Shown piece by piece: positions 1 to 30,947 of a stretch of DNA of 30,947 bases. Both the position numbers and the translations under genes were made by a program. How positions within the stretch are numbered: position 1 is the stretch's first letter; each line of letters starts with the position of its first letter. The notes under the pieces were generated by a model. The model was given only the letters and a program-made list of their open reading frames with translations. It had not been told where the DNA came from and ran no database searches. The stretch lies in IMG/VR virus record IMGVR_UViG_2534682078_000030. The stretch is one strand, 5' to 3'. The stretch is from a virus. Lineage: Duplodnaviria > Heunggongvirae > Uroviricota > Caudoviricetes.

Positions 1-22
1 GTATATTTATCTCATGGCTTGT

Positions 23-1000
23 TGAACCGCCCCGGGTTTCCTGGAGAGTGTTTTATCTGTGAACTCAGGCTGCCAGATCATCGTTTCCGATGGAAGCATA
101 ATAAGCTTTTTCTGCTTCTGCCGGAGGAGTATGGCCCAGCCTTCCCAGCAATCGTCGATTGTTATACCAGTCCACCCACGTTAGTGTGGCCAGTTCCACT
201 TCTGCACGGTTTTTCCAGCTCTTACGGTGTATTACCTCCGCTTTGTAAAGACCATTGATGCTCTCAGCCATCGCGTTGTCATACGAGTCGCCTGTACTCC
301 CTGTTGATGCCAGTAATCCGGCTTCTTTTAGTCGCTCCGTATAGGCCAGTGACACATACTGAGAGCCTTTATCGCTGTGATGGATGGTGCCAGACGGACG
401 ACGGGCCCACAACGCCTGCTCCAGCGCATCCAGCACGAATGTCGTTTCCATAGACGATGAGACCCGCCACCCCACGATGTATCCGGCAAACACATCAATG
501 ATAAACGCCACATAGACGAAGCCCTGCCATGTGCTGACGTAAGTAAAATCAGCCACCCACAGCTGGTCAGGTCGTTCTGCCACGAACTGACGGTTTACGC
601 GGTCGCCTGCGGCAACGGCTTTCCGGCTGATGGTCGTACGGACCTTTTTACCCCGGAGAACACCGGCAAGTCCCATAACCGCCATGTTACTGCGGCGCAG
701 TTCACGATTTTCACGTTCCAGCTCTTTCAGACGCTGACGTTCAGCGCTGGTGAGCCCACCATCACCGCCCCCGGTATCCCGCTCATGCTGGCGAACCCAG
801 ACACGCAGAGTCTCCGGCGTACAGCCAATCTTTGGGGCAATGGAACAAATTGCCGCCCACTGTGAGTCATATTCATCCTGACTTTCCAGAACCATACGAA
901 TCGCCCGCTGACGGACTTCGGGGGAAAAACGAGTATTTTTAGTCATCCTGTTTACCTCTTTCTCAGGGAGTTTAGTCTCCAGGATTTCCGGGGCGGTTCA
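23..1000 (-). mobile_element. IS3-family insertion sequence (IS629/IS1203-like), copy A, 978 bp, internally deleted
   Basis: Termini match copy B: TGAACCGCCCCGGGTTTCC from 23 (right end, reverse orientation) and GGATTTCCGGGGCGGTTCA ending at 1000 (left end). It is 332 bp shorter than the 1310-bp copy B; the junction at 685/686 joins orfA codons ...RRSN to orfB codons MAVMG. Flanking triplets TGT (20-22) and TTC (1001-1003) are not a direct repeat. Confidence 0.85.
65..946 (-). CDS. IS3-family transposase, in-frame OrfA-OrfB fusion created by the internal deletion (293 aa)
   Basis: First 86 aa are identical to OrfA of copy B ([19 protein letters not shown]...RELRRSN) and the remaining 207 aa are identical to the C-terminal part of OrfB of copy B ([14 protein letters not shown]...NDDLAA). 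The programmed-frameshift window and OrfB N-terminus are missing. Confidence 0.8.
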
Positions 1001-2412
1001 TTCAGGAGGACCGCCACGAGCTGGGCGATGACATAACTCCGCGTTTTAAGGCGGAGTATGTCGACGGCTCAAAAGGCACACCAACCAGCTACATCGCCAC
1101 CTACATCGGAAAGAACCTGGACAGCCGCGCCGTGGATGGCATCGACCCGAAAACGGGCAAGCCACGCGTTGACCACGAAACCGGAAAATCAATGGCCGAG
1201 AGCGTGGAGCGCGCCATCGGCTGGGCGCGCCTTCACCGGGTCCGTCAGTTCCAGTTCTTTGGCATCCCCTCCCGTCAGGTGTGGCGTGAACTGCGCCGCC
1301 TTGCCAGCCAGATGGCACGCAATCCGGAAGGCCCGCAACGGCTGAAAGATGATGCAATGGATGCGGTACTCGCTGCCGCCGATGCCGGGTGTTTTGCCAC
1401 CTACATTGAAAAACAGGGCGGCGTACTTGTTCCACGCAAAGACTACCTGATTCGCACCGCCTACGACCTCGCAGATGAGCTGAATGATTACGGCGAACAG
1501 AGCGTACAGATTTACGGGATCTGGTCACCACTCATCGGGGAATCCTCCCGTGTGTGCACGCATCCGGATAACTGGAAACTGGTAAGACGTAAACCGGAAA
1601 CGGAAGACAGCGCCCGCGAAAATGGTTTTGACCTTCAGGGCGGCCCTGCCGCCCCTTGGACTCGTGGCAATAACTGTCCCCGTGTACAGGAAACGGACAA
1701 CAACGGGGCAGAACAGCCGGAAGAACGGCCAGCACCGTGGCCGCAGCTCCCTGACGGCGTTGAAGTGAACGAATGGATGCGCTCACTGAAACGGCACGAA
1801 CGCCGGGCGCTGATGCGTTCGCTTCGTGACAAACAGGCAAAAAACAGCAGTGATGAAATGCAGAGCTGGACACAGAGCCGCAAACAGCAGCGGCCTTTGC
1901 CTGATAACCACGAATTACTCGCTAAAGAATGGCGGGAGTCTGCCGAATCTCTCGGCCTGCATATCGGTGAACAGCAGATGCAGCACCTGCTACGGGGCGG
2001 CAGCCTGTACGTTGACGGCAGCATCATTGCACCGCAGGGATATGAAATTGTACGCAAACCGGATACCCGCCCGGACAGCCGAATCACGCAGCTCTGGCAG
2101 CACCTGAGCCGTAATCACGGCGTAAGCAGCACGGAGATCCGCCATAACCCGGTCGCCAGCTATCTGGCACAGCTGGGGGCATCAGACCCCGAAGCCGCCG
2201 CACGCCTGGCATCCGCACTTCAGCAGGATCAGAACACCATGAAAACACCCGTTACCGTGCTTTCTGACATGCTGCGCGCCATCCGCGACGCAGAGCACGC
2301 ACAGAGAATCAGTGAAACCACTGAACGCGCCAGCCGCAAAGCAGACCTGCTGCAGGGTGGCCTGACCAGTGGAAACAAAAACAGACAGAAACGGGACTCA
2401 CGAATCCCGTAA
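1001..2412 (+). pseudogene. A: Replication initiator gpA-like (rolling-circle Rep with paired catalytic tyrosines), 5'-truncated by IS copy A
   Basis: Open frame starts at the IS boundary with no start codon (QEDRHELGDD...). It contains the Y-x3-Y motif SYIATYIGKN typical of the P2 A / phiX174 A nickase family and sits upstream of the Q-P / O-N-M-L head cluster as in P2-like phages. About 470 codons remain. Confidence 0.7.
2391..2410. repeat. 20-bp palindrome ACGGGACTCACGAATCCCGT, copy 1 of 2, overlapping the gene A stop
   Basis: Inverted arms ACGGGAYT / AATCCCGT read directly in the sequence; repeated 73 bp downstream. Confidence 0.6.
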
Positions 2413-2463
2413 ATGAGCAAAAAACGCGCAGCGATATATGAAGCGCGCACAAAACAGGCAAAA

Positions 2464-2483
2464 ACGGGATTTCAGAATCCCGT
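2464..2483. repeat. 20-bp palindrome ACGGGATTTCAGAATCCCGT, copy 2 of 2, about 35 bp upstream of parM
   Basis: Perfect 8-bp arms with a 4-bp spacer; both copies are followed by TAAA. Position is consistent with an operator or centromere-like site for the parM operon. Confidence 0.6.
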
Positions 2484-2517
2484 AAACGATTAATTAATCA
2501 ACATAAGGAAAAGCGAC

Positions 2518-3477
2518 ATGAAAATTTGTATCGACGACGGCTCCACCAACATCAAGCTGGCATGGACTGAGAACGGCGAACGCCGCAACGCCATCAGCCC
2601 GAACAGCTTCAAGTCGGAATGGTCTGCGCCGTTCGGTGGCACGCAGCCCGCGAACTACATGCTTGATGGCGTGCGCTATGGTTTTGATCCGGTCAGCGAT
2701 CGCTTTGTCCAGACGACCGACACGCAATACCAATACAGTGATGTGAATGTCATTGCCATTCATCACGCGCTGGTCAAATCAGGCATCACGCCACAGGAGG
2801 TGGATGTGGTTGTCACCCTGCCACTGAGCGAGTATTTCGACACAAACGCACAGCCGGACATAGCCAACATCAACCGCAAAAAAGCGAACGTTATGCGCCC
2901 GGTGGAGTACCAGAACGGCGAAGCATTCACTATCCGTAACGTGCGGGTTATGCCTGAATCCATTCCGGCTGGCTTTAAGGCACTGGCTGACATGAGTCCG
3001 TTTGAATCCCTGCTGATTGTGGATTTGGGCGGAACCACGCTGGATGTGGCAAAGGTTCAGGGGCAGCTGGCAGGTATCAGCCAGGTGTTTTGCGATCCAC
3101 ACGTAGGCGTTTCCCTGATGGCTGATGCCGTGCTGTCGGTGATGGCCACTAACGGTATGCGTACCAGTCACCACATCGCCAATACCATTATTGAGCACCG
3201 TCACGATGAAGCCTGGCTGCGCCAGCACATTCACAATGACGCGCATTACAACAGCCTGATGGCGGTTATTCGTGAAAAGGAGGAGACACTGAAACAACGA
3301 GTGATCCGCGCGCTGGCGGGTTTTTCCGGTTACGGGCGGGTGATGGTTGTCGGTGGAGGGGCGGAGATTGTGGCACCCGCTATCCGCGAAGCCTGCGGAG
3401 TTAATGCGACTTTCATCACGGACGGGGTGCCACATTTTGCTCTGGTTAATGGGCTGTACGCAATGAACAAGGAGTAA
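2518..3477 (+). CDS. parM: ParM/StbA-like actin-type plasmid segregation ATPase
   Basis: 319 aa; N-terminus ICIDDGSTNIKLAW...ISPNSFKSEW, then YSDVNVIAIHHAL, VMPESIPAG, LIVDLGGTTLD and VVGGGAEI align closely with my recollection of plasmid R1 ParM. SD AAGGAAAA precedes the ATG at 2518. Confidence 0.85.
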   Translation: MKICIDDGSTNIKLAWTENGERRNAISPNSFKSEWSAPFGGTQPANYMLDGVRYGFDPVSDRFVQTTDTQYQYSDVNVIAIHHALVKSGITPQEVDVVVTLPLSEYFDTNAQPDIANINRKKANVMRPVEYQNGEAFTIRNVRVMPESIPAGFKALADMSPFESLLIVDLGGTTLDVAKVQGQLAGISQVFCDPHVGVSLMADAVLSVMATNGMRTSHHIANTIIEHRHDEAWLRQHIHNDAHYNSLMAVIREKEETLKQRVIRALAGFSGYGRVMVVGGGAEIVAPAIREACGVNATFITDGVPHFALVNGLYAMNKE

Positions 3478-3481
3478 ACCA

Positions 3482-3793
3482 ATGACGACACCAACCAGAA
3501 GAATAAGTTTCTATCTGAAGCCAGCTGCCGTCAAGAACGAAGGAGAAGCATGCGCCTGGCTGGACAGCCTTACACCAGAAGCCCGCAAAAGCGGCCAACG
3601 CGTGGCTTTTCTGGCCGGGCTGGCACTTCTGAAGACGAATCCGGCAGAGGCTTACCGACTGGCCGCATGGGCTGATGATGAGATGTTACCTGTGACACAA
3701 ATCAGCTCAAAAAAGTTTGAAGCACAGTCTGCACCAGTGGCTAAGATAACCAGCCAGATGGCTGGGAATATCCGGGCGTTATTTCCTGAGTAA
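3482..3793 (+). CDS. parR: ParR/StbB-like centromere-binding adaptor
   Basis: 103 aa immediately after parM; RRISFYLKP...LDSLTPEARKSGQRVAFLAGLAL resembles the R1 ParR N-terminal ribbon-helix-helix region (RRTIAFKLNP...LDSIPQGERSRLNRAALTAGLAL). Confidence 0.7.
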   Translation: MTTPTRRISFYLKPAAVKNEGEACAWLDSLTPEARKSGQRVAFLAGLALLKTNPAEAYRLAAWADDEMLPVTQISSKKFEAQSAPVAKITSQMAGNIRALFPE

Positions 3794-4157: not shown

Positions 4158-4427
4158 GTGCGGGCTAAAACAGGTATTTGCAAGAACCCTCATCGTTATA
4201 ACCCAACATTTCTGTCTCTCCCTGAATATCAAGGACAAGAAGGTCGGCACAAATGCGCTGCCTGTGCTTTTGAGCTAGGCATAAAAGATGCGCTTGAAGG
4301 ACGCGCTATGGCTCAGAATGATTTAGTTTTAGCTAACATTCCGTTTAGCCAGGCTGGAACTGTAAGGCACAGAGATGCTTATGAAGCATATGTTCGTGGT
4401 TGGCGATTAATACACAGCAACAATTGA
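4158..4427 (+). CDS. Hypothetical 89-aa protein (GTG start), Cys-containing (HKCAACAFELG)
   Basis: ORF with SD GAGG 8 nt upstream of GTG and a strong intrinsic terminator directly downstream. I do not recognise a family. Confidence 0.5.
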   Translation: MRAKTGICKNPHRYNPTFLSLPEYQGQEGRHKCAACAFELGIKDALEGRAMAQNDLVLANIPFSQAGTVRHRDAYEAYVRGWRLIHSNN

Positions 4428-4989: not shown

Positions 4990-5514
4990 ATGGTCATTAA
5001 TTACAAGCAGTTACGAGAAAAACGAGAGCAGGTAAAGGAAAGTTTTCGCCGCAATGAAGATCTGACCCCGCTTGTACACCTTGCTCAGGGAATTGTAGAT
5101 GCTTATGAAATCTCTCTGGAGCTGCCATCACAGACATGGACTGATAGCGACGGTAATCGCCAGCATTACGTTTCATGCGGACTGGAAACAACTGAAGGGT
5201 TTCGCAGAATGCCTTTATCTCAGATTCCTGCCTCTACCCCCAAAGCAAGGGGCGGCAATGATGAGCGAAAACTGATTTTCAGCATTGAGACAGTGGTTGA
5301 CGACACACCTGGCGAAGTCGCCTTCGTGCATACTCCTCTTTCGATCGCAATGTATAACGATGAAATACAGGTTCGCGTTAATAATAATATCGTGCCACTT
5401 AAAGAAGGTAATTCACCCTACACCACCGTTTGTGAAGCCATTCAATATTACGTTCTCTCTGAAATTGATAATCTCAAGCCTGACGGCACCCAGAAAATGG
5501 TTCAACTCTGGTAA
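4990..5514 (+). CDS. Hypothetical protein, about 174 aa, unknown function
   Basis: ATG at 4990 with GGAGG 7 nt upstream (the tracked ORF opens at 4951, but the start at 4990 has the SD). Terminated by a hairpin plus T run. No recognisable motif. Confidence 0.5.
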   Translation: MVINYKQLREKREQVKESFRRNEDLTPLVHLAQGIVDAYEISLELPSQTWTDSDGNRQHYVSCGLETTEGFRRMPLSQIPASTPKARGGNDERKLIFSIETVVDDTPGEVAFVHTPLSIAMYNDEIQVRVNNNIVPLKEGNSPYTTVCEAIQYYVLSEIDNLKPDGTQKMVQLW

Positions 5515-5519: not shown

Positions 5520-5545
5520 ACAGCCCCATCACGGGGCTGTTTTTT
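5520..5545. terminator. Bidirectional intrinsic terminator ACAGCCCC-atcac-GGGGCTGT flanked by A5 and T6
   Basis: 8-bp GC-rich stem with a U tract on either strand; lies between the convergent 174-aa ORF and Q. The Q stop codon (5529-5531) is in the loop. Confidence 0.7.
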
Positions 5546-6575
5546 CATCAAGAAGAGCATAAGAATTAAAACGGATCACCTCTTCGCCAAGCCAGTCATT
5601 GATGTGCTTCATGGCCTCCATAACGGGCATCAGCTCGTTAATTGCATAAACCCGCGCGGCCTTCTCCACATCACCAAACGCACTTTTTTCGCCCGGCATC
5701 GCCCCCATCAGTTGCGGCGGAACACGGTGCGCAGCCAGCACATCATCACGGGATGCCGCCTTAACATTCATGAACTCATCTTTTGCGGTGATCTGCTGGA
5801 ACGGCAAAATTTGCACCCCCTCTTTGCCCCCGTTGGGCGCATGAATGAGCACGTTTTTAAATGCACCACTACCACGTGCACCCTGTAATGTTTCTTTCAG
5901 GGAGTCCATGCTTTCGCGGTTTACCTGCGCTGCACCGATGTAGATGATGCACCCGGCGTGGGATCCGTTGTCGTAATACAGTTTTCTGAACATGTCCGCC
6001 GAATGAGACAGGCTGGCCGAGAGTAATGCGCCGAGATATTCCGGCATGCCGTAGATTTCCTGGTTAATATCCGGATTCATCAGGTGGCACACTTTGCCAG
6101 GGCGAAACTGAAACGCGTCCTTGCCATCCTGCACATACCACCATGATTCAAGATCGCTTCCGCGTCGCATGTATTTCGCCAGTGCGTGCCGTAATTTAAG
6201 CGGTTCGCCGAGCATATTGCTTCGAAGCTCAAGGTATGCGTTACCGAACACAAACCAGTCCAGCGCCAGCGCCGAGAAATCCTGCCGGGAAAGCAGCGGG
6301 TGCGGAATATAGCAGCCGAGCAATACATTGCGCTTAAAGTAAAGCGCAGACTGATGCCAGGACGTTTGCCGGGCGGCTCTTGCCAGACCGTACCAGTCCA
6401 CCGGGGTTTCATACCACCGCCCGTTATCAGCACAGTACATATTGTCCAGCAAATCATGCCCGGTCAGGCGATAAGGACCATCAAAAGTGAATGCACTGAG
6501 CGACGATTCTTTCCTGAGCGCATCAGCGAGATCAATGCGTGAACTCATGCGCACTTTTTTATTTTTTCTGCTCAT
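5529..6575 (-). CDS. Q: Portal protein (P2 gpQ family)
   Basis: 348 aa, immediately downstream of and overlapping the terminase large subunit on the same strand, as in P2; length and position fit gpQ. Confidence 0.8.
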   Translation of the reverse strand: MSRKNKKVRMSSRIDLADALRKESSLSAFTFDGPYRLTGHDLLDNMYCADNGRWYETPVDWYGLARAARQTSWHQSALYFKRNVLLGCYIPHPLLSRQDFSALALDWFVFGNAYLELRSNMLGEPLKLRHALAKYMRRGSDLESWWYVQDGKDAFQFRPGKVCHLMNPDINQEIYGMPEYLGALLSASLSHSADMFRKLYYDNGSHAGCIIYIGAAQVNRESMDSLKETLQGARGSGAFKNVLIHAPNGGKEGVQILPFQQITAKDEFMNVKAASRDDVLAAHRVPPQLMGAMPGEKSAFGDVEKAARVYAINELMPVMEAMKHINDWLGEEVIRFNSYALLDEKTAP

Positions 6576-8326
6576 CAGAACTCCATAACCGTGAAACGCT
6601 CGTTTTCTCCTTCGCCGCCAATTGGTTCGTTAATGACAGCAAGCATGGTTGCCCACGCAAGGTCGCCGTGGCTGATCCCCCTCGCGCGGTCCGTTTCGTA
6701 AGTGATAAAACCGCCCGGTGTTTTCACCTTACGCACGGCGTTAAAGGCCGCGACCAGCTCGCGTTCGGCGCGATCGTATTCCCACCGCCCGGCACGCATT
6801 ATTTGCAGCATTTTCAGTACCAGCGACCGTTTTGATGACAGCGTGAAGGTGTACGGAATAGCAGCAGGGAAAAACCGTTTCACTATCTGATAAACAGCCT
6901 CCCCGTTCCCGCCCGTCACATCAATGCCGATGTGTTCCACGTTGTAGCGACACGTGAACTCTTCAATGACTCTGGCCTGTTCTTCAAACTCCAGCCCCTG
7001 AACGCGTCGCGTCTCCACCGTTCGAAAACGGCCACCAGGAACAGCCGGAGGAACCACCACAGACACAGCGCCGCTGTCGCCGTTGCCACTGCTGCCGTTT
7101 GCGTCATACCCAATCCATACCGGACGATTCCCCATCGGGCGGGGAGCAAAAGGTTTCCAGTCTTTCCAGTCGTCGTATCCGTCAACACCGCAGCCAATCA
7201 GGATATTCAGGTTAAATGCCGATTCCCCTTCGCGGACAAACTCACACATATAGAGATTGAGGAACTCGTCTTCGGTGTTTTCATCACGAATTTCGTCGAT
7301 ATCGGTGTGTTTCCAGCCGTGATTAACCACATCTTCCAGCGTGACAATTTGCCGCCACGTCCGGTCAGGGCAGATAAGCCCGTTATGCAGCGTATTCCAG
7401 TCCACAGAAAAACGCCGGCGTTTATGCGTGGCCTTTTTCTCGTTCCAGCGGTCGCCGTTCCAGTAGGCGTATGCTTCGTGCGTTTCGGTGGATGGCGTGG
7501 AGAAGTAGGTGCGCCGCAGTCCGCTGAGGGTTGCCATAGCGCCAGCCACCTTGCGCAGTTCAGCAAAGCGACTGACCCAGAAAAATTCATCAAAATAAAA
7601 ATTGCCCGTATAGGACTGCGCCGACGCAGCAGAAGTGCCGAGAAAATGCAGCTCTGCGCCATTGGAGAGGATGATTTTATCGCCCCCTTTCAGCTCCACA
7701 TCAACTTCAGCCGCAGCCTTCTGAATAATGCTTTTAAACTGGAACGCCTGACGACGCGACGCAGACAAAAAAATCTGGTTACGCTGGTAAGGTTGCGCCA
7801 CATCGTCACGCAGCGCCATCAGCAGAGCTTCCTGTGCAAAATACCAGGTCGCCCCAATCTGTCGGGATTTCAGGATCATCCTGTTACGTATCCCGGCTTC
7901 CCTGCAAAGGGTCAGGGAGTCAAACCAGCCCCGCTGATGCCACTCCAGCCTGCTGATGATTTTTTCCCGCAGTGCGGAAATCTGTTCCGGCGTGAAATGA
8001 TTTTTGAGTTTTTTCGCCCGGCCTTTCTTTCCTGCGGCCATCACATCCGGATGGCCATCATGCAGCTTTTTAAGCTGCCGGGTCAGCAGGTCTATTTCCT
8101 TAAAGTCACCGCCTGTTTTATTCTGTTTTTCAGTAAGCTGGATGAGGCGCGCATCGATGGACTGCGTGACACGCTGCACGGGTGGCGTTTCATCCCACTG
8201 GTCGCGTTTTTTCCACGCATAAATCGTGTTCGGGTTTATTCCCATCAGACGTGATATTTCTGCGGGCGGATAACCCTGCCAGTAAAGTTGCCGCGCACGC
8301 TGGCGCACAAAAGCGTCCTGAATCAT
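6575..8326 (-). CDS. P: Terminase large subunit (P2 gpP family)
   Basis: 583 aa; divergent from the O-N-M-L operon across a 120-bp intergenic region, as in P2. Confidence 0.85.
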   Translation of the reverse strand: MIQDAFVRQRARQLYWQGYPPAEISRLMGINPNTIYAWKKRDQWDETPPVQRVTQSIDARLIQLTEKQNKTGGDFKEIDLLTRQLKKLHDGHPDVMAAGKKGRAKKLKNHFTPEQISALREKIISRLEWHQRGWFDSLTLCREAGIRNRMILKSRQIGATWYFAQEALLMALRDDVAQPYQRNQIFLSASRRQAFQFKSIIQKAAAEVDVELKGGDKIILSNGAELHFLGTSAASAQSYTGNFYFDEFFWVSRFAELRKVAGAMATLSGLRRTYFSTPSTETHEAYAYWNGDRWNEKKATHKRRRFSVDWNTLHNGLICPDRTWRQIVTLEDVVNHGWKHTDIDEIRDENTEDEFLNLYMCEFVREGESAFNLNILIGCGVDGYDDWKDWKPFAPRPMGNRPVWIGYDANGSSGNGDSGAVSVVVPPAVPGGRFRTVETRRVQGLEFEEQARVIEEFTCRYNVEHIGIDVTGGNGEAVYQIVKRFFPAAIPYTFTLSSKRSLVLKMLQIMRAGRWEYDRAERELVAAFNAVRKVKTPGGFITYETDRARGISHGDLAWATMLAVINEPIGGEGENERFTVMEF

Positions 8327-23537: not shown

Positions 23538-24053
23538 TCCCGCTGCGAAGTGCCGCCCGCTCGCGCCAGCTAACCACTTCGCCGGGCGTCATCATGAAGA
23601 TTTCGGCGGGCGACCAGTTAAAAATGGCGGCAATATCCGCCACCAGATCTTCGATGTGCTCAAAGCACACCAGGGTGATTACGCTGCCGTCTCCTGCACG
23701 CTCTTCGCGCCAGAGTCTGGCTCGCTCATAAAATTTACAGCCACTGCGCACAACTGAATAAAATCGCGTGACGACATTTTTTTAATCATCACTTCATCCA
23801 GTCGTGGCGAGGTCACGCGAGGCAACAGCGTAAACATGGTATCCGCTTTCAGATTCAGCACATCAGACAGCGACAGACCACGCAGGGATCCAGCCTGCTC
23901 AATAGCCCCGGTGATCTCCACATACGTGATTTTTTCGCCACCACGCTCAATTGGTCGGGTCAGTTTTACGCCACGTTCGACAGCCATATCCTCACCTGCC
24001 GTCACATCACCCGCCACGGTGTTATTCCGGGTTTCAGTATCGATGTCTTTCAT
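23515..24053 (-). CDS. E': Tail assembly chaperone E+E' made by programmed -1 frameshift
   Basis: The -1 frame is open from the A7 run to 23515 and encodes ...FMMTPGEVVSWRERAALRSG, resembling the conserved E' C-terminus; overlaps the start of T as in P2. Confidence 0.6.
23679..24053 (-). CDS. E: Tail assembly chaperone (P2 gpE family)
   Basis: 124-aa ORF upstream of T; contains the A7 slippery run (plus-strand T7 at 23777-23783). Confidence 0.7.
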   Translation of the reverse strand: MKDIDTETRNNTVAGDVTAGEDMAVERGVKLTRPIERGGEKITYVEITGAIEQAGSLRGLSLSDVLNLKADTMFTLLPRVTSPRLDEVMIKKMSSRDFIQLCAVAVNFMSEPDSGAKSVQETAA

Positions 24054-24108
24054 CAGTTGTCTCCTTTTCAGTCAGAGGCGACGCACTGCGCCGCCTGCAT
24101 ATTACTTA

Positions 24109-24621
24109 TCAGCCAAGCCCAAGCGCGGAACGGATACGGTCAGGCACAATGTCCTTGCCGTCCTTCCGGTAAATGAAGTTCAGCAGGTCAATCTCCCACA
24201 ACGGGCGATCGTTAACACTCAGCTTGTAGTAGGTGTTTTTAATGGCGTAAGTGTGTGATGTGGCTTCGCCCTGTTTGGCTTCCCCCATATCAATTTCCGT
24301 CACACGCCCGCGCATCTCGATTTCATACAGATCGCTTTCTGCATCGGTGTAGTATTCACCCACAAAACGCAGCAGCGTGCCGTCAATCGTGCCGCCATAC
24401 TTAAGGAACAGCGCACGAACAGCTCCCCCCATGACAAAACTCGCATCAAGCGCGGAGTCGTCCAGACCGAGATCAATACTTACCGCACCCATCATGCCGC
24501 CCCCCCGGTAGCTGTCGGTTTTGCGCGTCAGTTTGGGCAGAGTGACGGACGTCACCTTACCCACTTCGTTTTCACCATCCACAAACAGCGTAAAAAAGCG
24601 AAGATGTTTTGGTACAGCCAT
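24109..24621 (-). CDS. FII: Tail tube protein (P2 gpFII family)
   Basis: 170 aa; VTLPKLTRK...YRGGGMMGA...DLGLDD matches the gpFII N-terminal pattern. Confidence 0.9.
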   Translation of the reverse strand: MAVPKHLRFFTLFVDGENEVGKVTSVTLPKLTRKTDSYRGGGMMGAVSIDLGLDDSALDASFVMGGAVRALFLKYGGTIDGTLLRFVGEYYTDAESDLYEIEMRGRVTEIDMGEAKQGEATSHTYAIKNTYYKLSVNDRPLWEIDLLNFIYRKDGKDIVPDRIRSALGLG

Positions 24622-24836
24622 CAGGCACCTCCCAGCACCGCAAATGCGGGTTCAAAGTATTCATCAGTAAACGTCTGGTAAAGCTCCATGTCTTCCAGTG
24701 GCGGAACGGGCGTATATTTGTAGCGAATACGCACACGCCCCTGACGTAAATCCGTGGTGCTGTTATCCACCACGTCATACCAGCACTCCGCGCCAATCAG
24801 TTTCCCGGCAGTAACCAGTGAATCCAGTTTTGCCCT

Positions 24837-24839
24837 GAT
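24837..24839. repeat. Target-site duplication GAT, left copy
   Basis: Triplet immediately 5' of the IS terminus TGAACCGCC; identical to 26150-26152. Confidence 0.8.
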
Positions 24840-24893
24840 TGAACCGCCCCGGAAATCCTGGAGACTAAACTCCCTGAGAAAGAGGTAAACAGG

Positions 24894-25220
24894 ATGACTA
24901 AAAATACTCGTTTTTCCCCCGAAGTCCGTCAGCGGGCGATTCGTATGGTTCTGGAAAGTCAGGATGAATATGACTCACAGTGGGCGGCAATTTGTTCCAT
25001 TGCCCCAAAGATTGGCTGTACGCCGGAGACTCTGCGTGTCTGGGTTCGCCAGCATGAGCGGGATACCGGGGGCGGTGATGGTGGGCTCACCAGCGCTGAA
25101 CGTCAGCGTCTGAAAGAGCTGGAACGTGAAAATCGTGAACTGCGCCGCAGTAACGATATCCTTCGCCAGTCTTCCGCTTATTTTGCGAAGGCGGAGTTCG
25201 ACCGCCTCTGGAAAAAATGA
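24894..25220 (+). CDS. IS3-family transposase OrfA (helix-turn-helix, leucine zipper)
   Basis: 108 aa, [41 protein letters not shown]..., which I recognise as IS629/IS1203 OrfA. Confidence 0.9.
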
Positions 25221-26107
25221 TGCCACTGCTGGATAAGCTGCGTGAGCAGTACGGGGTCGGACCGGTATGCAGCGAACTGCATATTGCCCCGTCAACGTAT
25301 TACCATTGTCAGCAACAGCGACATCATCCGGATAAACGCAGTGCCCGTGCGCAGCACGACGACTGGCTGAAGAGAGAGATACAGCGCGTATACGATGAAA
25401 ATCATCAGGTGTACGGTGTGCGTAAAGTCTGGCGTCAGTTGTTACGGGAAGGAATCAGGGTGGCCAGATGTACAGTGGCACGTCTCATGGCGGTTATGGG
25501 ACTTGCCGGTGTTCTCCGGGGTAAAAAGGTCCGTACGACCATCAGCCGGAAAGCCGTTGCCGCAGGCGACCGCGTAAACCGTCAGTTCGTGGCAGAACGA
25601 CCTGACCAGCTGTGGGTGGCTGATTTTACTTACGTCAGCACATGGCAGGGCTTCGTCTATGTGGCGTTTATCATTGATGTGTTTGCCGGATACATCGTGG
25701 GGTGGCGGGTCTCATCGTCTATGGAAACGACATTCGTGCTGGATGCGCTGGAGCAGGCGTTGTGGGCCCGTCGTCCGTCTGGCACCATCCATCACAGCGA
25801 TAAAGGCTCTCAGTATGTGTCACTGGCCTATACGGAGCGACTAAAAGAAGCCGGATTACTGGCATCAACAGGGAGTACAGGCGACTCGTATGACAACGCG
25901 ATGGCTGAGAGCATCAATGGTCTTTACAAAGCGGAGGTAATACACCGTAAGAGCTGGAAAAACCGTGCAGAAGTGGAACTGGCCACACTAACGTGGGTGG
26001 ACTGGTATAACAATCGACGATTGCTGGGAAGGCTGGGCCATACTCCTCCGGCAGAAGCAGAAAAAGCTTATTATGCTTCCATCGGAAACGATGATCTGGC
26101 AGCCTGA
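25217..26107 (+). CDS. IS3-family transposase OrfB (DDE catalytic domain)
   Basis: 296 aa in the -1 frame relative to orfA, normally expressed as an OrfAB fusion by frameshifting at the A run. Confidence 0.9.
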
Positions 26108-26149
26108 GTTCACAGATAAAACACTCTCCAGGAAACCCGGGGCGGTTCA

Positions 26150-26152
26150 GAT
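26150..26152. repeat. Target-site duplication GAT, right copy
   Basis: Triplet immediately 3' of the IS terminus ...GGGCGGTTCA. Confidence 0.8.
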
Positions 26153-27275
26153 GGCACTGATAACATCCTTCACGTTCGCAGGCGTCAGTGGACTGTCGAT
26201 GGTTTCAAACTGCGCTTCCGCAATTGAATCAGCAAGCACCTGTGCGGTTCGGGTATACACCTCAAAGATGTAGGCGTTCGTTTCCGGTGTGCGGTTGCCC
26301 CAGAAGCGGAACCCGTTGCGACGAATAATGGTCGTGATTTCTTTGTTGTTGAGGCTGTTGGCATCGCTGTCTTCGGCCTGCAACGACCAGAACACATGCC
26401 TCGACATCCCCAGCACATTTTTAACCGGAACGTTGGACAGTGATTTGTGCCAGCCCTGCTCATGGTCAATGTACGCACGAAGGCCGCACGCATAGGCAGG
26501 CGCGGGGAACGTTTCGTTTTTGCCACTTTTCGGGTTGTAGGCGATGAAGTCCGGCCATAAGAGCATCACCTCACGTTCGTTGAATTTCTGGCGGTAGGTA
26601 ATCGCCTCAGCCATCGTGTTACAGCCGTGACATGAGGCATACACAAACGCGCGCAGTTTACCCGCAATCACGCACAGGGATTTTGTTACCGCCTCCGTGT
26701 CCAGCTCCGGCGCGGCCAGAATACGCGGACGGTATCCGATGCTTTCATCCTGCTCTGCAACAAGCAGCGCATACATCCCCGTATAGCTGCCGTCAGATTC
26801 AGAACCACCGATAACCAGTTGATCCTGCGTTTTTCCGTCTTCTTCTTTATGTTCAGCCACGCGAACGACGATCACCTTTGTGCTCACCTGGTCTGCGATG
26901 GCCTTAAGCGCACGATAAAGCGTCCCCGTTGTTCCGCATTTTCCCAGCACGTCATTGACGCGGGTCAGCAGTGTGGGCTTGTTCAGCGGGAACAGCTCCG
27001 CGTCCGCATCATCCGCCGTTGCCACGATACCGATAACACTGGAATCAACATCATTAATCGCTGTTACCAGGTCGGTACTTTCCGTAACACGGGCACCATG
27101 AAAACGAGTTTCACTCATAGCTTCAGCCCCTTGTATCCGTTAAATGATTCGGCAACAATCATCACCCACCACGCGCGTAATCTCACCCCTGCGCCGTTCT
27201 CCCGCCCCGGCGACAACAAAAAGCAGTAACCCCCTCCGCACGCACATGCGACCATGCCGCACAGGGAGGGAGCAG

Positions 27276-28384
27276 ATGACCGACACCACCATGCAATTGC
27301 TCAGTCAGGGCACAGACCCCGTGAAAATGCCGGATTTTGATATTCTCGCGGAGGGTAAAACGCTGTCAGGCGTGGCAGAGCGCCTGATGAGCCTGTCACT
27401 GACCGACAACCGGGGATTTGAGGCGGACCAGCTCACCATCACGCTGGATGATGCGGATGGTCAGTTGCAGCTACCGCCACGGGGCGCGCGCCTGACGGTT
27501 CTCATTGGCTGGAAAGGAGAACCGCTGACAGAAAAAGGCACTTACATTGTTGATGAAATCGCTCACGAAGGACCGCCGGACAGGCTGACTGTTTCAGCCA
27601 GAAGCGCAGATTTTCGGGATGAATTTAACGTTAAACGTGAGGTGTCCTGGCATGATGTGACCGTTGAGCGTGTGGTATCCGCCATCGCTCATCGGTATGG
27701 TCTGAAACCGCAAATCAGCGAAATGCTGATGGATATCGAAATCGACCACGCCGACCAGACCGAAGAAAGCGACATGTCCTTCCTTACGCGCATGGCGGAA
27801 ATGCTGGGCGCAATCACCACGGTAAAAAGAGGTAATCTGTTATTCATCATGCCCGGCGGTGGCGTGAACGCACAGGGCCAGCCGTTGCCCTCGTTCGCCA
27901 TCACACGCAGCAGCGGCGATCGCCATCAGTTCCGCATTGCTGACCGCGAAGCGTATACGGGGGTACGCGCTTACTGGCTTGATCTTAATTACGGGAAAAA
28001 GAAAAAGTCAGCGTGAAACGCCGCAAACCGTCAAAACCAAAAAAGGAGAAAAGCAGCAGCCGGGAAGGCGACTATATGGAAGGTGCGGAAGGCAACGTGT
28101 TTGTGTTACGCAAAACTTATCAGAACGAGCAGGCAGCAAGACGTGCAGCGGCGGCAAAGTGGCAGCAGCTACAACGCGGAGCCGCATCATTCTCCATCAC
28201 ACTGGCGCATGGACGTGCAGAACTCTACCCCGAAATGCATGGCACGGTAACAGGATTTAAAAGCGAGATTGATAATCAGGACTGGATTATTGCAAAAGCC
28301 GAGCACACCATTGATAACAGCGGCTTTACCACGCAGCTTGAGCTTGAGGCAAAAATCCCGGAATGGATAGCAGAAACAGAGTGA
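27276..28384 (+). pseudogene. D: Tail protein D (P2 gpD family), split by a -1 frameshift in GGGAAAAAGAAAAAG (27993-28007)
   Basis: N part (to 28016) has SLSLTDNRGFEADQLTITLDDADGQL and SARSADFR; C part (from 28013) has REGDYMEGAEGNVF and GFTTQLELE; both are collinear with P2 gpD. ATG at 27276 is preceded by GGGAGGGA. Could equally be a homopolymer sequencing error. Confidence 0.6.
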
Positions 28385-28546
28385 GCAACTTAAATGTATT
28401 AACTCAGAACGGATCAACACACTCACAACATAGAGTCAATATAGCTGCTCGCTTTGTTCCAGCAAGGATGCCTATTTCTAAGGAAAAACAGAGCAGAAAC
28501 ATATGGTGTTTTCCTACCTGACATCAGGGGTGGTAAGAATCATGCT

Positions 28547-28574
28547 TTGATAACCAATTGATAACTATTATTAT
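28547..28574 (+). promoter_or_regulatory. Candidate sigma70 promoter TTGATA-16-TATTAT for the 500-aa cargo gene
   Basis: -35 at 28547-28552 and -10 at 28569-28574, about 35 bp upstream of the ATG at 28610; AT-rich context. Sequence-only prediction. Confidence 0.4.
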
Positions 28575-28609
28575 ATTAATCTAACACCATTGACATAGTT
28601 GAGGTTTGA

Positions 28610-30112
28610 ATGAACAAAAAGCTGTATTTATTCCCAGACTCAAACATTTTTCTACAATGCAAGGACTTGACGCAGGTAAATTTTTCCGAGATTACTGCTT
28701 GTGATGAAGTATGTATCATTATTACAAGGCCCATTCAGCAAGAGATTGACCGCCAGAAAGGGCAAGGTAATTCCCGCCTATCCAAAAAAGCAAGGAAGGC
28801 TGCTAGCCTATTTAATCAAGTAGTTGATTCAACTGACATGACTCTTGTTATTCGTGAACGCTCGCCGCGAGTTTTTCTTACCATGGATCTAAGCCTGAAA
28901 CCATGTGAACAGTTATCTGAACAATTGGATTATCAGGAGGCCGACGATCGTTTTGTTGGTATTGCGGCAGGGTATTGCGCTGACGATCCAGATTCGGAGG
29001 TGGCAATCATTACCAATGATAGCGGTCCACGTTTTTCAGCAATAAAACATAATATAATCTGCTATAAAGTGCCTTCTTCATGGTTGCTTCCTGCTGAGCC
29101 AGATGAAAAGGATAAACAAATTAAATTGCTGGAAGCTAAGCTGAAGCAATTCACTCAGTCTATGCCCGATTTCAGCATTAAAGTAGCCGATGACGAGCAA
29201 TTAAATATTGTACTTCCTTATTATACAGCTTTATCTGAATATGAAGTTGATAATTTGCTTTGTCAACTAACGGATGCATTCCCATTGGTTACAAACTTTG
29301 ACAATGAACAAACTACCCCACAATCACTAGAAAAAATCATCAAGTCATTTAGTCAACAGGAGTATTTCCCTGTATCAGCAGATGATATTTCTCTTTATAA
29401 AGAAAAACATTATCCACTTTGGAAAAAGCAGTGTGAAGAAATACTGAAAAACTGTCATACTCATATTAATCCGAAGGCAATAAAATACCCGCTGTCGTTT
29501 TTATTACAAAACACAGGTTATACTATCGCTGAACGTGCTGTGGTAACATTTACAGCAAAAGGAGATTTTCGTCTGTGTGGATTTAATTGGGAGATAATGG
29601 AAGAGCTGACTGAAAGCAAAAGGATTGACCTACCTTCAGCCCCTACCGCCCCCAAAGGAAAATGGCGTAGTGTATGTGGCGTAACAGAAAGAATGCCTTA
29701 CGCTGGGGGAGCTTTGGAAACACCGCTATCCAGTATAATTTCAAAAGAAATTGGTCCTTTGTTATCTCTTACTCCAACAGAAAGGGATAAAAACGATTTT
29801 TATTATAAAGAAAAGAGAAATGAGCCAGTTCAAGTTGTATCGCTGGAATGCGAAGAGTGGCGTCATCAAGTCAAAGAAGAAATATTCCCGTTGTTCGTAT
29901 ATACAGCCAACAAACCAAAGAAAGTGAATGGTGCAATTGAGGTGAGAGTTGATGCAAATAACCTTACCAATCCGGTCATTAAAACATTTAAATTAAAAAT
30001 AACTATAGAAGAACATAGTGCATTTTCAACCATAACAGAAATGGTGCAGACATACATTCAAGAGCAGAAGAAAAGACAGAAAAGTTCTATTAGCGCACAA
30101 ATCAAAACATGA
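28610..30112 (+). CDS. 500-aa protein with N-terminal PIN-like nuclease domain and uncharacterised C-terminal region; candidate phage-defence effector
   Basis: Long ORF with SD GAGG 9 nt upstream; AT-rich codon usage unlike the flanking phage genes. N-terminus LYLFPDSNIFLQ...IIITRPIQQEIDRQ...KKARKAASLF...VAIITNDSGP has PIN-like spacing of acidic residues. No Walker A or HEPN motif seen. Confidence 0.6.
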   Translation: MNKKLYLFPDSNIFLQCKDLTQVNFSEITACDEVCIIITRPIQQEIDRQKGQGNSRLSKKARKAASLFNQVVDSTDMTLVIRERSPRVFLTMDLSLKPCEQLSEQLDYQEADDRFVGIAAGYCADDPDSEVAIITNDSGPRFSAIKHNIICYKVPSSWLLPAEPDEKDKQIKLLEAKLKQFTQSMPDFSIKVADDEQLNIVLPYYTALSEYEVDNLLCQLTDAFPLVTNFDNEQTTPQSLEKIIKSFSQQEYFPVSADDISLYKEKHYPLWKKQCEEILKNCHTHINPKAIKYPLSFLLQNTGYTIAERAVVTFTAKGDFRLCGFNWEIMEELTESKRIDLPSAPTAPKGKWRSVCGVTERMPYAGGALETPLSSIISKEIGPLLSLTPTERDKNDFYYKEKRNEPVQVVSLECEEWRHQVKEEIFPLFVYTANKPKKVNGAIEVRVDANNLTNPVIKTFKLKITIEEHSAFSTITEMVQTYIQEQKKRQKSSISAQIKT

Positions 30113-30355
30113 GGGTGTACTCAAATAATACAATGCTATAGTAAATCTATAAGTGCATAACTATTTCCTGATCTTTTCCCAAAATAGATGACAGGATAAA
30201 AAACATTCCAATCTTTTACAGGCTTTGGATAAATCGTATCAAAGCCTATTTCTTCAAGAGTTAAATCACCGCTTTTCGCTCGAAACGGACTGGCTGTTGG
30301 AGTATGAGCCAGAACAACTTAGAATAGCCCCTGCACTACGTTAAGGGAGGTCGCT

Positions 30356-30616
30356 ATGTTCCGTTGTCCGCTTTGTGGCGCATCTGCCCGTATCCGCACC
30401 AGTCGTCCGGAAAATGATTCAAACACCGTGCGGCAAAAGTATTACCAGTGTAACAATCTGGAATGCGGCGTATGCTTCTCAACACTGGAAGCTTTCCATA
30501 AATTCACATCAAAACACGCCTCCGGCGTTCACTCTTCAGAAGATATCCCGTGGCATGATCTGCCAGCTTCACACAGGGGAAACAATCAGATGAGCTTGCC
30601 TTTACCTCAGAATTAA
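30356..30616 (+). CDS. ogr: Late gene transcriptional activator, Ogr/Delta zinc-finger family
   Basis: MFRCPLCGASARIRTSR...YYQCNNLECGVCF matches the C-x2-C...C-x4-C pattern and N-terminus of P2 Ogr (MFHCPLCQHAAHARTSR...YHQCQNVNCSATF); SD GGGAGG upstream. Confidence 0.85.
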   Translation: MFRCPLCGASARIRTSRPENDSNTVRQKYYQCNNLECGVCFSTLEAFHKFTSKHASGVHSSEDIPWHDLPASHRGNNQMSLPLPQN

Positions 30617-30676
30617 CAGGCAGAATTGCCGGAGTAACAAAAAAGCGATAGATTACGCGCGGGTGCCTTTCGGCTG

Positions 30677-30889
30677 ATGGTCGGAGGGAATACCCGAAGG
30701 CCAGATGTGGAAAGGCCCCGGAAAACATCTCTGTTTAACCGAGGCCCTAACCGCATTACCTTGACAAGTGAAAGGTTAGCGCCTCTCCGGAAAAGGAGCA
30801 AGTGCTATGTCGCAAAAATCGCTTACGACCATCACGTTCTGCGTGACGGCAATCCTCATCATCTGGATGTTGCACGGTTCGCTGTGTGA
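30677..30889 (+). CDS. Possible mok-like overlapping reading frame of the hok locus
   Basis: 70-aa ORF overlapping the hok-like gene in another frame, as mok does in hok/sok loci. No independent support. Confidence 0.3.
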   Translation: MVGGNTRRPDVERPRKTSLFNRGPNRITLTSERLAPLRKRSKCYVAKIAYDHHVLRDGNPHHLDVARFAV

Positions 30890-30947
30890 AATACGGATGA
30901 GCTTCTGGGGAGCGGAGTTTGCGGCGTTCTTACAGTGTAAGCAGTAA
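30807..30947 (+). CDS. Hok/Gef-family type I toxin (small membrane peptide)
   Basis: 46 aa MSQKSLTTITFCVTAILIIWMLHGSLCEIRMSFWGAEFAAFLQCKQ: one transmembrane segment followed by SLCEIR and EFAAF, the Hok/PndA family signature. SD AAGGAG 8 nt before the ATG. The stop codon is the last triplet of the window. Confidence 0.7.
   Translation: MSQKSLTTITFCVTAILIIWMLHGSLCEIRMSFWGAEFAAFLQCKQ

What the first reader, a model, noticed from the sequence alone, without database searches (positions are those of the whole stretch)
1..30947. Defective prophage with intact, separately promoted cargo genes
Core functions are hit repeatedly: replication gene A and sheath gene FI by IS insertions, with Tfa and D possibly frameshifted. 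Meanwhile the three AT-rich cargo loci (parMR and orphans; acetyltransferase; PIN-like protein) and the hok-like toxin have intact ORFs with their own promoters and terminators. This pattern is typical of a prophage retained for the benefit of its accessory genes, and it is where uncharacterised defence or conversion functions are most likely to be found.
Basis: inference. Interest (0 to 1): 0.4.

Follow-up and report, generated by a model that had tools for sequence, protein, structure and literature searches.

The report
Crippled P2-type prophage keeping cargo genes
This is a P88/P2-type prophage of enterohaemorrhagic E. coli O111 that can no longer replicate or excise but still has its add-on genes intact; that pattern is already well described, and the only possibly new part is an uncharacterised 500-residue PIN-nuclease gene that looks like an anti-phage defence gene.

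Summary
The window is a P88-like (Xuanwuvirus, P2-family) prophage at the btuC–ihfA site of EHEC O111. It is identical to more than 50 complete genomes apart from one IS, four missing A's and one silent SNP.

Confirmed:
- An IS629 copy replaces 2.5 kb, including the first 460 codons of replication gene A.
- A full IS629 with a 3-bp duplication splits sheath gene FI.
- The cargo ORFs are intact, and four cargo blocks are AT-rich.

Not as described:
- The A lesion is an IS-linked deletion, not a simple insertion.
- The FI insertion was not seen in any of the complete genomes carrying this prophage.
- The frameshifts in Tfa and D, plus one in A, are one- or two-base shortenings of poly-A runs. 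Every relative except one frameshift-riddled phage record has the longer runs, so they are probably sequencing errors.
- parMR is not AT-rich, and functional relatives carry it too.

The prophage is still defective, because int, repressor and cox are also deleted just outside the window. An apparently intact O26 relative carries the same cargo, so the cargo predates the decay.

Selective retention is plausible but unproven. One remnant keeps only PIN–ogr–hok, which fits selection, but hok/sok linkage or chance explains it equally well.

The PIN protein belongs to an uncharacterised family found in P2 hotspots, an ICE and type I R-M operons, which makes it a credible defence candidate.

The parts
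23..1000 (-). IS629/IS1203 copy 1. It is 978 bp long because of a 331-bp internal deletion that removes the ALIL frameshift signal and fuses orfA to orfB (293-aa ORF at 65-946). No target-site duplication. It marks the deletion of the early genes and the 5' half of A.
   Evidence: full-length in strain 11128
1001..2440 (+). Remnant of replication endonuclease gene A (residues 461-940 of 940). In this window the frame is also broken at 2377 (A6 shortened to A5).
2518..3793 (+). parM (2518-3477) and parR (3482-3793), a type II actin-like partition pair. GC is core-like. Also present in the functional phages P88 and 520873.
4158..4427 (+). 89-aa orphan ORF (phrog_3941, function unknown). A promoter-like site lies at 3922-3949 and a strong terminator hairpin at 4435-4455. 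The surrounding block 3794-4450 has GC 0.417.
4990..5514 (+). 174-aa orphan ORF (phrog_5091). The block 4927-5553 is an insertion relative to P88, next to the portal gene. The family is confined to the gpA-gpQ hotspot of P2-like prophages. No fold match.
5529..18871 (.). Intact late genes: Q and P on the minus strand; O, N, M, L, X, holin, endolysin, lysB/lysC, R, S, V, W, J, I and H on the plus strand. Identity to P88 proteins is 97-100% for Q to I; H matches P88 only over its N-terminal 254 residues (94%).
18871..19449 (+). Tail-fibre assembly gene (192 aa in relatives). In this window it is frameshifted by the loss of two A at 19264-5.
19491..20063 (-). 190-aa hexapeptide-repeat (CysE/WcaB/EpsC-like) acetyltransferase moron (phrog_2154). 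The block 19450-20213 has GC 0.342. A promoter-like site lies at 20143-20115 and a hairpin at 19451-19478.
20223..24621 (-). Intact tail genes U, T (tape measure), E', E and FII.
24624..27118 (-). Sheath gene FI, split into residues 322-394 (24624-24842) and residues 1-323 (26150-27118) by IS629.
24840..26149 (+). IS629/IS1203 copy 2. Complete at 1310 bp, with orfA 24894-25220, orfB 25217-26107, the ALIL pseudoknot at 25175-25291, and a 3-bp target duplication GAT.
27276..28384 (+). Tail gene D (369 aa in relatives). In this window it is frameshifted at 28002 (A6 shortened to A5).
28393..30315 (+). PIN cassette, a clean 1.9-kb insertion at the D|ogr junction of P88, GC 0.379. The ORF 28610-30112 encodes a 500-aa protein with an N-terminal PIN_4 domain. 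A promoter-like site lies at 28547-28574. There is no partner ORF.
30356..30616 (+). ogr, the late-gene activator (Ogr/Delta zinc finger). Intact.
30661..30947 (+). hok/sok type I toxin-antitoxin locus. A sok-like region lies at about 30661-30820. hok is at 30807-30947 (46 aa), and the window ends at its stop codon.

Best explanation
The window is most of a P88-like (Xuanwuvirus, P2-family) prophage integrated between btuC and ihfA in an EHEC O111 strain.

When it was functional, the phage carried several add-on genes (morons) at the usual variable sites of P2-like genomes:
- parMR plus two small orphan ORFs between A and the portal gene;
- a hexapeptide acetyltransferase after the tail-fibre genes;
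- a 500-aa PIN protein between D and ogr;
- hok/sok at the right end.

In the O111 lineage two deletions stranded the element. One, 1.1 kb and just outside the window, removed the int N-terminus, the repressor and the cox-like gene. The other, 2.5 kb and bordered by IS629, removed small early genes and the first 460 codons of A. The element can therefore neither replicate nor excise (inferred from gene content).

In this particular strain a second IS629 then jumped into sheath gene FI. The three frameshifts are most probably homopolymer sequencing errors.

The cargo genes are intact because the decay is recent and consists of only two or three real events, none of which happened to hit the 15% of the DNA that is cargo. 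Selection for the cargo, and protection of the right end by hok/sok, may contribute but are not needed to explain the window.

The likeliest roles of the cargo genes are inferred, not shown:
- The PIN protein is a stand-alone, abortive-infection-type nuclease. Its C-terminal beta-sandwich region would sense an invader and release the N-terminal PIN nuclease.
- The acetyltransferase O-acetylates a surface polysaccharide that serves as a phage receptor (lysogenic conversion).
- hok/sok stabilises the locus.
For: IDENTITY AND SYNTENY
- Similarity to P88-like phages and to O111 genomes.

LESIONS
- IS boundaries, the target duplication in FI and the lack of one next to A.
- Deletion end-points measured against the intact O26 RM8426 relative.
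- The IS/A junction is present in at least 39 complete genomes.
- The FI insertion was not seen in any complete genome; the best-ranked matches all lack it.
- The frameshifts are A-run shortenings. They are absent from E2863, 11128, FWSEC0005, 95JB1, O26, O157 and P88; apart from the window, only the frameshift-riddled record 520873 has one of them, the D allele.

CARGO PREDATES THE DECAY
- The same cargo is present in the apparently intact O26 prophage.
- The PIN cassette is a clean insertion at the D|ogr junction of P88.

STATISTICS
- Cargo ORFs are 14.9% of the non-IS DNA. The chance that five hits all miss them is 0.45.

PIN PROTEIN
- PIN_4 domain with conserved D10, E45, D47, D112/D113 and D137.
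- Confident model (pLDDT 84) of a PIN domain, a helix, an alpha/beta domain and a beta-sandwich.
- No partner ORF in the cassette.
- Homologues sit as single genes in three different P2 variable sites and in an ICE.
- In 12 of about 53 genomic loci, across at least 5 phyla, homologues sit between hsdS and hsdR of type I R-M operons.
- Other neighbours include AbiE and Fic genes.

ACETYLTRANSFERASE
- Homologues lie at prophage ends, next to tail-fibre genes or hok.

LITERATURE
- P2 hotspots, and defective P2 elements that keep conserved defence genes: PMC9122126, PMC13586616.
Against: - The SW071610 remnant, which keeps PIN-ogr-hok intact while nearly everything else is gone, hints at selection or addiction rather than pure chance.
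- No expression or phenotype data exist for any cargo gene.
- The homopolymer changes could be real slipped-strand mutations.
- The O26 prophage is called 'intact' from annotation only.
- The PIN protein matches no PADLOC, PHROG or NCBIfam model. Its defence role rests on gene neighbourhood alone.
- PIN domains also occur in toxin-antitoxin systems and in RNA-processing proteins.
Confidence: 0.8

Rival explanations
1. One reading: the prophage persists because its accessory genes (PIN, acetyltransferase, orphan ORFs, hok) benefit the host. Purifying selection keeps them intact while the mobility and virion genes are free to decay.
For: - At least 39-59 genomes from cattle and humans on several continents keep the element.
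- The SW071610 remnant retains PIN-ogr-hok intact while the structural genes are deleted.
- The literature reports defective P2 elements with pseudogenised mobility genes next to conserved defence genes (PMC13586616).
- The PIN family has defence-type neighbourhoods.
Against: - In O111 the roughly 30 structural and lysis genes are as intact as the cargo.
- Copies are at least 99.8% identical, so there is no divergence with which to measure selection.
- Missing the cargo by chance is likely (P = 0.45-0.72).
- Only one strongly decayed remnant was examined.
Confidence: 0.35
2. Retention of the right end (PIN-ogr-hok) is a by-product of the hok/sok addiction module. Deletions that remove hok/sok kill the cell, so neighbouring DNA hitch-hikes whatever its function.
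For: - hok is intact (Pfam HOK_GEF 29 bits), with a sok-like upstream region (Rfam 48 bits, E = 1e-9).
- The retained block in SW071610 is exactly the 2.8 kb adjoining hok.
- In other E. coli prophages an acetyltransferase homologue also sits right next to a hok gene.
Against: - The sok match is below Rfam's gathering score, and activity is untested.
- Many chromosomal hok loci in E. coli are inactive (established knowledge of K-12 hok homologues).
- It does not explain persistence of the left 25 kb in O111.
Confidence: 0.25
3. The element is not really dead: the frameshifts are artefacts, and with IS-free FI it could still make particles, or serve as a tailocin or helper for satellites.
For: - In IS-free O111 relatives all head, tail and lysis genes and ogr are intact.
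- The frameshifts are probably artefacts.
Against: - Half of A, the int N-terminus, the repressor and the cox-like gene are deleted in every O111 copy examined.
- In this window the sheath gene is physically split by a bona fide transposition with a target duplication.
Confidence: 0.05
4. The PIN protein is not a defence gene. It could instead be the toxin of an unrecognised toxin-antitoxin or addiction module, or a phage-benefit factor (host RNA turnover or anti-defence) used during lytic growth.
For: - PIN domains are the commonest toxin fold in type II TA systems (established knowledge).
- The gene came in with a functional phage.
- It matches no known defence model.
Against: - There is no adjacent small ORF that could be an antitoxin.
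- The protein is 500 aa with large conserved extra domains, unlike VapC.
- It is embedded between hsdS and hsdR in one deep clade.
- tblastn found no homologue in 50,697 phage records.
Confidence: 0.3

Closest known systems
Phage P88 and Citrobacter phage PhiSM (functional Xuanwuvirus, P2 family)
   Same: - Gene order is the same, with 96-98% nucleotide identity over the A 3' half, parMR, Q to I, U to FI, D, ogr and hok.
- Both relatives are inducible or plaque-forming phages (PMC6456863).
   Different: - The window lacks the early genes and A residues 1-460. Just outside the window, int, C and cox are also affected.
- It has IS629 in FI.
- It has a different tail-fibre tip with an acetyltransferase in place of the invertible segment.
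- It carries two extra insertions, the 174-aa ORF and the PIN cassette.
Defective P2-like elements with conserved defence genes, and P2 hotspots (Rousset 2022, PMC9122126; Moura de Sousa 2026, PMC13586616)
   Same: [quoted passage not shown]
- Cargo sits between gpA and gpQ, within the tail genes, and near the att sites.
   Different: - None of the cargo genes here matches a known or candidate defence model (PADLOC).
- The text I read of those two papers does not list the D-ogr junction as a hotspot.
PrrC / RloC anticodon nucleases (latent RNases, PrrC embedded in a type Ic R-M operon)
   Same: - The genomic logic is alike. One deep clade of the PIN family sits between hsdS and hsdR of type I R-M operons.
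- Other members are stand-alone genes on mobile elements.
- The predicted architecture is a nuclease plus a large non-catalytic region.
   Different: - There is no sequence or fold relationship: PIN_4 here, not the PrrC ABC-ATPase plus HEPN-like nuclease.
- Neither activity nor trigger has been tested.
- The comparison draws on my own knowledge of PrrC.
NeuO of prophage CUS-3 (hexapeptide O-acetyltransferase encoded next to the tailspike gene; modifies K1 capsule)
   Same: - Both are small left-handed beta-helix acetyltransferases.
- Both are AT-rich morons beside the receptor-binding genes of a temperate phage.
   Different: - No specific sequence relationship was tested.
- The nearest curated families (EpsC, CysE, WcaB) score far below their cut-offs.
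- The substrate is unknown.
- NeuO is recalled from memory, not tested here.
hok/sok of plasmid R1 and chromosomal hok loci
   Same: - A 46-aa Hok/Gef protein.
- A sok-like region overlapping the hok start.
- 96% identity to the P88 hok.
   Different: - The sok match is below Rfam's gathering score.
- The window is cut at the hok stop codon, so the 3' fold-back element was seen only in relatives.

Membership tests
P2-family (Peduoviridae, Xuanwuvirus/P88-like) prophage | Conserved late-gene set and order: Q, P / O, N, M, L, X, lysis genes, R, S, V, W, J, I, H, G / tail genes / D, ogr. | tested here: met
   tblastn of all P88 proteins; megablast to P88-like phages; RefSeq annotation of identical loci
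P2-family (Peduoviridae, Xuanwuvirus/P88-like) prophage | A functional element needs a complete integrase, an immunity repressor/cox switch and the replication endonuclease A. | tested here: not met
   Only A residues 461-940 remain. Only int residues 64-324 remain, and repressor and cox are absent in O111. So it is a defective member.
IS629/IS1203 (IS3 family) | About 1310 bp with terminal inverted repeats, orfA/orfB with a -1 frameshift signal, and a 3-bp target duplication. | tested here: met
   Copy 2: 1310 bp, ends TGAACCGCCCCGG.../...CCGGGGCGGTTCA, target duplication GAT, ALIL pseudoknot 121 bits. Copy 1 has the same ends but a 331-bp internal deletion and no duplication.
PIN-domain nuclease | PIN fold with the conserved acidic active-site residues. 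| tested here: met
   Pfam PIN_4 at 33.9 bits against a cut-off of 21.9. D10, E45, D47, D112/D113 and D137 are invariant or nearly invariant in 38 sequences. Foldseek matches the PIN domains of Dis3, Nmd4 and AF0591.
PIN-domain nuclease | Metal-dependent nuclease activity. | not testable with these tools
   Needs biochemistry.
Known anti-phage defence systems (PADLOC-DB v2) | A match of any cargo protein to a model of a known or candidate defence protein. | tested here: not met
   No family at E <= 0.01 for 10 cargo and neighbouring ORFs. PIN also has no PHROG or NCBIfam match.
Defence gene by genomic association | Recurrent placement in defence islands, mobile-element hotspots or R-M operons, with patchy phyletic distribution. 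| tested here: met
   PIN homologues occupy three different P2 variable sites and an ICE. 12 of about 53 loci lie between hsdS and hsdR. About 60 of 185,579 species genomes carry one, across many phyla.
Type II toxin-antitoxin (VapBC-like) | A small PIN toxin (about 130-150 aa) with an adjacent small antitoxin gene. | tested here: not met
   The protein is 500 aa. No conserved small ORF lies within the 1.9-kb cassette, and no conserved partner is seen across loci.
Type II (ParMR) partition system | Actin-like ParM plus the ParR adaptor. | tested here: met
   Pfam StbA_N 274 bits and ParM C-terminal 226 bits; Plasmid_stab_B 83 bits.
Type II (ParMR) partition system | A parC centromere made of iterated repeats. 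| tested here: inconclusive
   Only two 37-nt hairpin-containing repeats upstream of parM, and some short dyads downstream of parR.
hok/sok type I toxin-antitoxin | A Hok/Gef toxin ORF. | tested here: met
   HOK_GEF at 29 bits against a cut-off of 22.
hok/sok type I toxin-antitoxin | A Sok antisense RNA / mok regulatory region. | tested here: inconclusive
   Rfam sok at 48.4 bits, E = 1e-9, below the gathering score of 59.
Serine O-acetyltransferase CysE / WcaB / EpsC equivalogs | A score above the curated NCBIfam cut-off. | tested here: not met
   EpsC 75 against 150, CysE 62 against 211, WcaB 55 against 196. It is a hexapeptide acyltransferase of that superfamily, but the substrate is undefined.

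The most novel reading that the evidence does not exclude
The 500-residue PIN protein (window 28610-30112) represents an uncharacterised, widespread family of single-gene anti-phage nucleases: 1259 representative sequences (one per 50%-identity cluster) at E <= 1e-30. The N-terminal PIN_4 nuclease would be held inactive by a conserved C-terminal beta-sandwich region with a C-E-x-W-R-H motif, and released by a phage cue. One clade would act as a back-up inside type I R-M operons, in the way PrrC does. Another clade would move between the variable sites of P2-like prophages and ICEs. If so, the O111 prophage remnant would be kept in part as a defence locus.
Probability: 0.4. Interest if true: 0.55.

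Novelty: already known. Interest (0 to 1): 0.3.

Why it matters
As a whole the finding is ordinary. EHEC genomes are full of IS629-damaged prophages. P2-like prophages are known to carry cargo at a few hotspots, and defective copies are known to keep that cargo.

Three practical points follow:
The 'repeatedly hit core, spared cargo' argument should therefore not be made from one assembly.
- A ready-made decay series at one chromosomal site allows a real test of whether cargo is selectively retained. The series runs from the intact O26 copy, to O111, to this strain, to the SW071610 remnant.
- The PIN gene is a cheap and specific candidate for a new defence family. Its independent associations with P2 hotspots, an ICE and type I R-M operons justify a plaque-assay test.

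Tried and rejected
- **P2 cos site.** Searching for the sequence as I recalled it found nothing, even with 3 mismatches. P88-like phages presumably use a different cos, and I did not pursue it.
- **Family searches for the PIN protein.** PADLOC, PHROGs and NCBIfam gave nothing. A sequence search of the PDB gave nothing. tblastn against 50,697 phage records gave nothing.
- **The 174-aa ORF.** Its family is shallow. The model has pLDDT 76, and no PDB fold matches at E < 0.7.
- **Promoter and terminator scans.** Counts were not above shuffled expectation for promoters, so the sites I cite are positional candidates only.
- **Literature.** Searches found no paper on this PIN family or on the function of the prophage 'serine acetyltransferase'. 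The Ogura 2009 description of the O111 prophages is not in the searchable library, so I cite it from memory only.
- **Tailocin or helper reading.** I considered and rejected a still-functional element of this kind for this strain, because FI is physically split.
- **VapBC-type reading of PIN.** Rejected because of the protein's size and the lack of a partner gene.

Full report
**What the window is**

Megablast places bases 999-24839 at 96-97% identity on P88-like phages (genus Xuanwuvirus, P2 family). Bases 1-24839 and 26150-30947 match a chromosomal locus in enterohaemorrhagic E. coli O111 genomes at essentially 100% identity. In strain E2863 that locus lies between btuC and ihfA.

The window begins immediately after the DUF4754 early gene and ends at the stop codon of hok. 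It is therefore most of the prophage but not all of it; the left 2 kb is missing.

tblastn with every P88 protein shows that the late genes from Q to I, and from U to FII, are full-length and 75-100% identical; H matches P88 only over its N-terminal 254 residues, its tip being different.

**The lesions**

- **Gene A.** An IS629/IS1203 copy lies at 23-1000 on the minus strand. It has the normal ends but a 331-bp internal deletion, which fuses orfA to orfB in a 293-aa ORF. It has no target duplication. To its right, gene A starts at residue 461 of 940. Measured against the closest complete relative, in O26 RM8426, 2.5 kb is missing: small early genes plus A residues 1-460. This is an IS-associated deletion rather than a simple insertion. 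The IS/A junction is present in at least 39 complete genomes. That is a lower bound, because the search hit its per-record limit.
- **Sheath gene FI.** A complete 1310-bp IS629 at 24840-26149 splits FI after residue 322. It has a 3-bp duplication (GAT) and a recognisable ALIL frameshift pseudoknot. The transposition is real, but I did not see it in any complete E. coli genome carrying this region: the best-ranked of the 57 matching genomes all align in two pieces at 82% coverage, i.e. without the IS.
- **Outside the window.** The O111 copies also lack 1.08 kb covering the int N-terminus, the repressor, the cox-like gene and the start of DUF4761.

The element is therefore truly defective, but because of two lineage-wide deletions, not because of five scattered hits.

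**The cargo**

Comparison with P88 and 520873 defines four AT-rich blocks that P88 lacks or carries in a different form:

| Block | GC | Content |
|---|---|---|
| 3794-4450 | 0.417 | 89-aa ORF |
| 4927-5553 | 0.451 | 174-aa ORF |
| 19450-20213 | 0.342 | acetyltransferase |
| 28393-30315 | 0.379 | PIN protein |

parMR (2518-3793) has core-like GC (0.544) and is present in the functional relatives. Hok is a bona fide HOK_GEF protein, with a sub-threshold sok-like region upstream.

Well-placed promoter-like hexamers precede the PIN gene (28547-28574), the acetyltransferase gene (20143-20115) and the 89-aa ORF (3922-3949). However, such matches are no more common than in shuffled sequence. The scan found clear terminators only at 4435-4455 and 5520-5540. 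A hairpin followed by a T-run after the acetyltransferase gene (19451-19478, found by eye) and a weak one after the PIN gene are candidates.

**Is the cargo selectively retained?**

The window alone cannot say.
- Cargo ORFs are 14.9% of the non-IS DNA. Five independent hits would all miss them 45% of the time, and two hits 72% of the time.
- In O111 the structural genes are as intact as the cargo.
- The PIN cassette is at least 99.8% identical in all 59 genomes that carry it, so there is no divergence to analyse.
- The O26 RM8426 prophage at the same site has a full int, repressor and early genes, a 940-aa A, and the same 174-aa ORF, tail fibre, acetyltransferase, PIN, ogr and hok. The cargo therefore arrived with a working phage.

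One observation points the other way. Strain SW071610 keeps only a remnant: fragments of int, O and N, followed by the last 250 bp of D and intact PIN, ogr and hok. That fits selection for PIN. It fits equally well with hitch-hiking on hok/sok.

Published surveys describe exactly this situation for defective P2 elements, and they name the gpA-gpQ interval and the tail region as hotspots (PMC13586616; PMC9122126).

**The PIN protein**

Domains and model:
- It has an N-terminal PIN_4 domain (residues 10-151) and about 350 further residues that match no family.
- It has no hit in PADLOC, PHROGs, NCBIfam, PDB sequences or 50,697 phage records.
- Homologues are all about 490-520 aa. D10, E45, D47, D112/D113 and D137 are invariant or nearly invariant, as is a C-terminal C-E-x-W-R-H motif.
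- A profile search finds 1259 cluster representatives at E <= 1e-30.
- The AlphaFold model (pLDDT 84) shows a PIN domain, a long helix, an alpha/beta domain and a beta-sandwich. Foldseek matches only the individual domains.

Genomic context:
- It is a lone gene. The cassette contains no plausible partner ORF, and no partner is conserved across loci.
- Homologues sit between S and V in a Rahnella P2-like prophage, between the portal gene and parMR in an Enterobacter one, and in a Pectobacterium integrative element with a type IV secretion system.
- Among about 53 loci from a scan of one genome per species, 12 have the gene between hsdS and hsdR of a type I restriction-modification operon. These 12 fall within one deep clade spanning at least five phyla.
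- Other neighbours include AbiE, Fic and integrase genes.

This is the standard signature of a defence gene. The R-M embedding recalls the anticodon nuclease PrrC (my own knowledge). I therefore propose a stand-alone abortive-infection nuclease, at about 40% confidence. A toxin/addiction role or a phage-benefit role are the alternatives.

**The other cargo**

- **Acetyltransferase.** It is a hexapeptide-repeat enzyme of the CysE/WcaB/EpsC superfamily but scores far below every curated cut-off. Its family (647 clusters, phrog_2154) recurs at prophage ends, beside tail-fibre genes or hok, and in P1-like phages at 91% identity. By analogy with NeuO of prophage CUS-3 (from memory), the best guess is O-acetylation of a surface polysaccharide used as a receptor. 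The only paper I found lists a homologue simply as 'fitness' cargo (PMC6456863).
- **The 174-aa ORF.** It belongs to a small enterobacterial family that is always found in the gpA-gpQ hotspot. It has no fold match.
- **The 89-aa ORF.** It matches only a PHROG of unknown function.

**Verdict**

The overall phenomenon, and this very prophage, are already in public genomes and in the literature, so the finding ranks low. The useful outputs are:
- the correction of the 'repeated hits' picture;
- a natural decay series at one att site;
- a concrete, testable defence candidate in the PIN gene.

Noticed in passing
window 23-1000 (compare 25155-25485 of the full copy): The IS629 copy next to A carries a 331-bp internal deletion. 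It removes the ALIL frameshift pseudoknot and fuses orfA in frame to orfB (293-aa ORF with HTH_Tnp_1 and rve domains). Strain 11128 has the full-length IS at the same place, so the deletion happened after insertion.
   Followed up: partly
L001 (NC_049344.1, 'phage 520873') 31638-34782: A different P88-like prophage has its sheath gene split by a different element, IS100 of the IS21 family. FI has therefore been hit independently twice. This could be coincidence or a preferred or tolerated target. That record also has many split genes, which suggests homopolymer errors.
   Followed up: no
L076 (SW071610, NZ_CM129858.1) 18132-22555: A 4.5-kb remnant of the same prophage at the same btuC-ihfA site keeps only gene fragments plus intact PIN, ogr and hok, and a 131-aa hypothetical gene at the left end.
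   Followed up: partly
L012, L014, L015, L016, L026, L028, L034, L038, L045, L049, L050, L051 (about 8.3-14.7 kb in each locus): In these genomes the PIN homologue lies between hsdS and hsdR of a type I R-M operon. The ORF called upstream of it combines a Pol-beta-type nucleotidyltransferase domain with the HsdS specificity domain. This is either a fusion or a small MNT gene merged in by my ORF caller.
   Followed up: partly
L002 38275-39075 and 38222-38314 (= window about 27585-28384): RefSeq annotates tail gene D as a 266-aa protein with a late start, plus a pseudo 'hypothetical protein' on the opposite strand. The ORF actually reads through 369 aa and aligns end to end with P88 D. This is an annotation quirk that could be mistaken for damage.
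   Followed up: yes
window 19214-19410: Rfam family IS009 (a candidate intergenic sRNA from E. coli screens) matches at 182 bits inside the 3' part of the tail-fibre assembly gene. It probably reflects tfa-derived sequence in the seed rather than an RNA gene here.
   Followed up: no
window 2380-2416 and 2453-2489: Two 37-nt direct repeats (81% identical), each containing an ACGGGA...TCCCGT hairpin, straddle the end of gene A, just upstream of parM. They could be terminators or part of a parC-like site.
   Followed up: no
[not shown]
   Followed up: partly
L070-L072 5662-6573: In other E. coli prophages a 57%-identical acetyltransferase lies directly downstream of a hok gene at the prophage end next to a heavy-metal ATPase gene. 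The hok-acetyltransferase pairing recurs.
   Followed up: no
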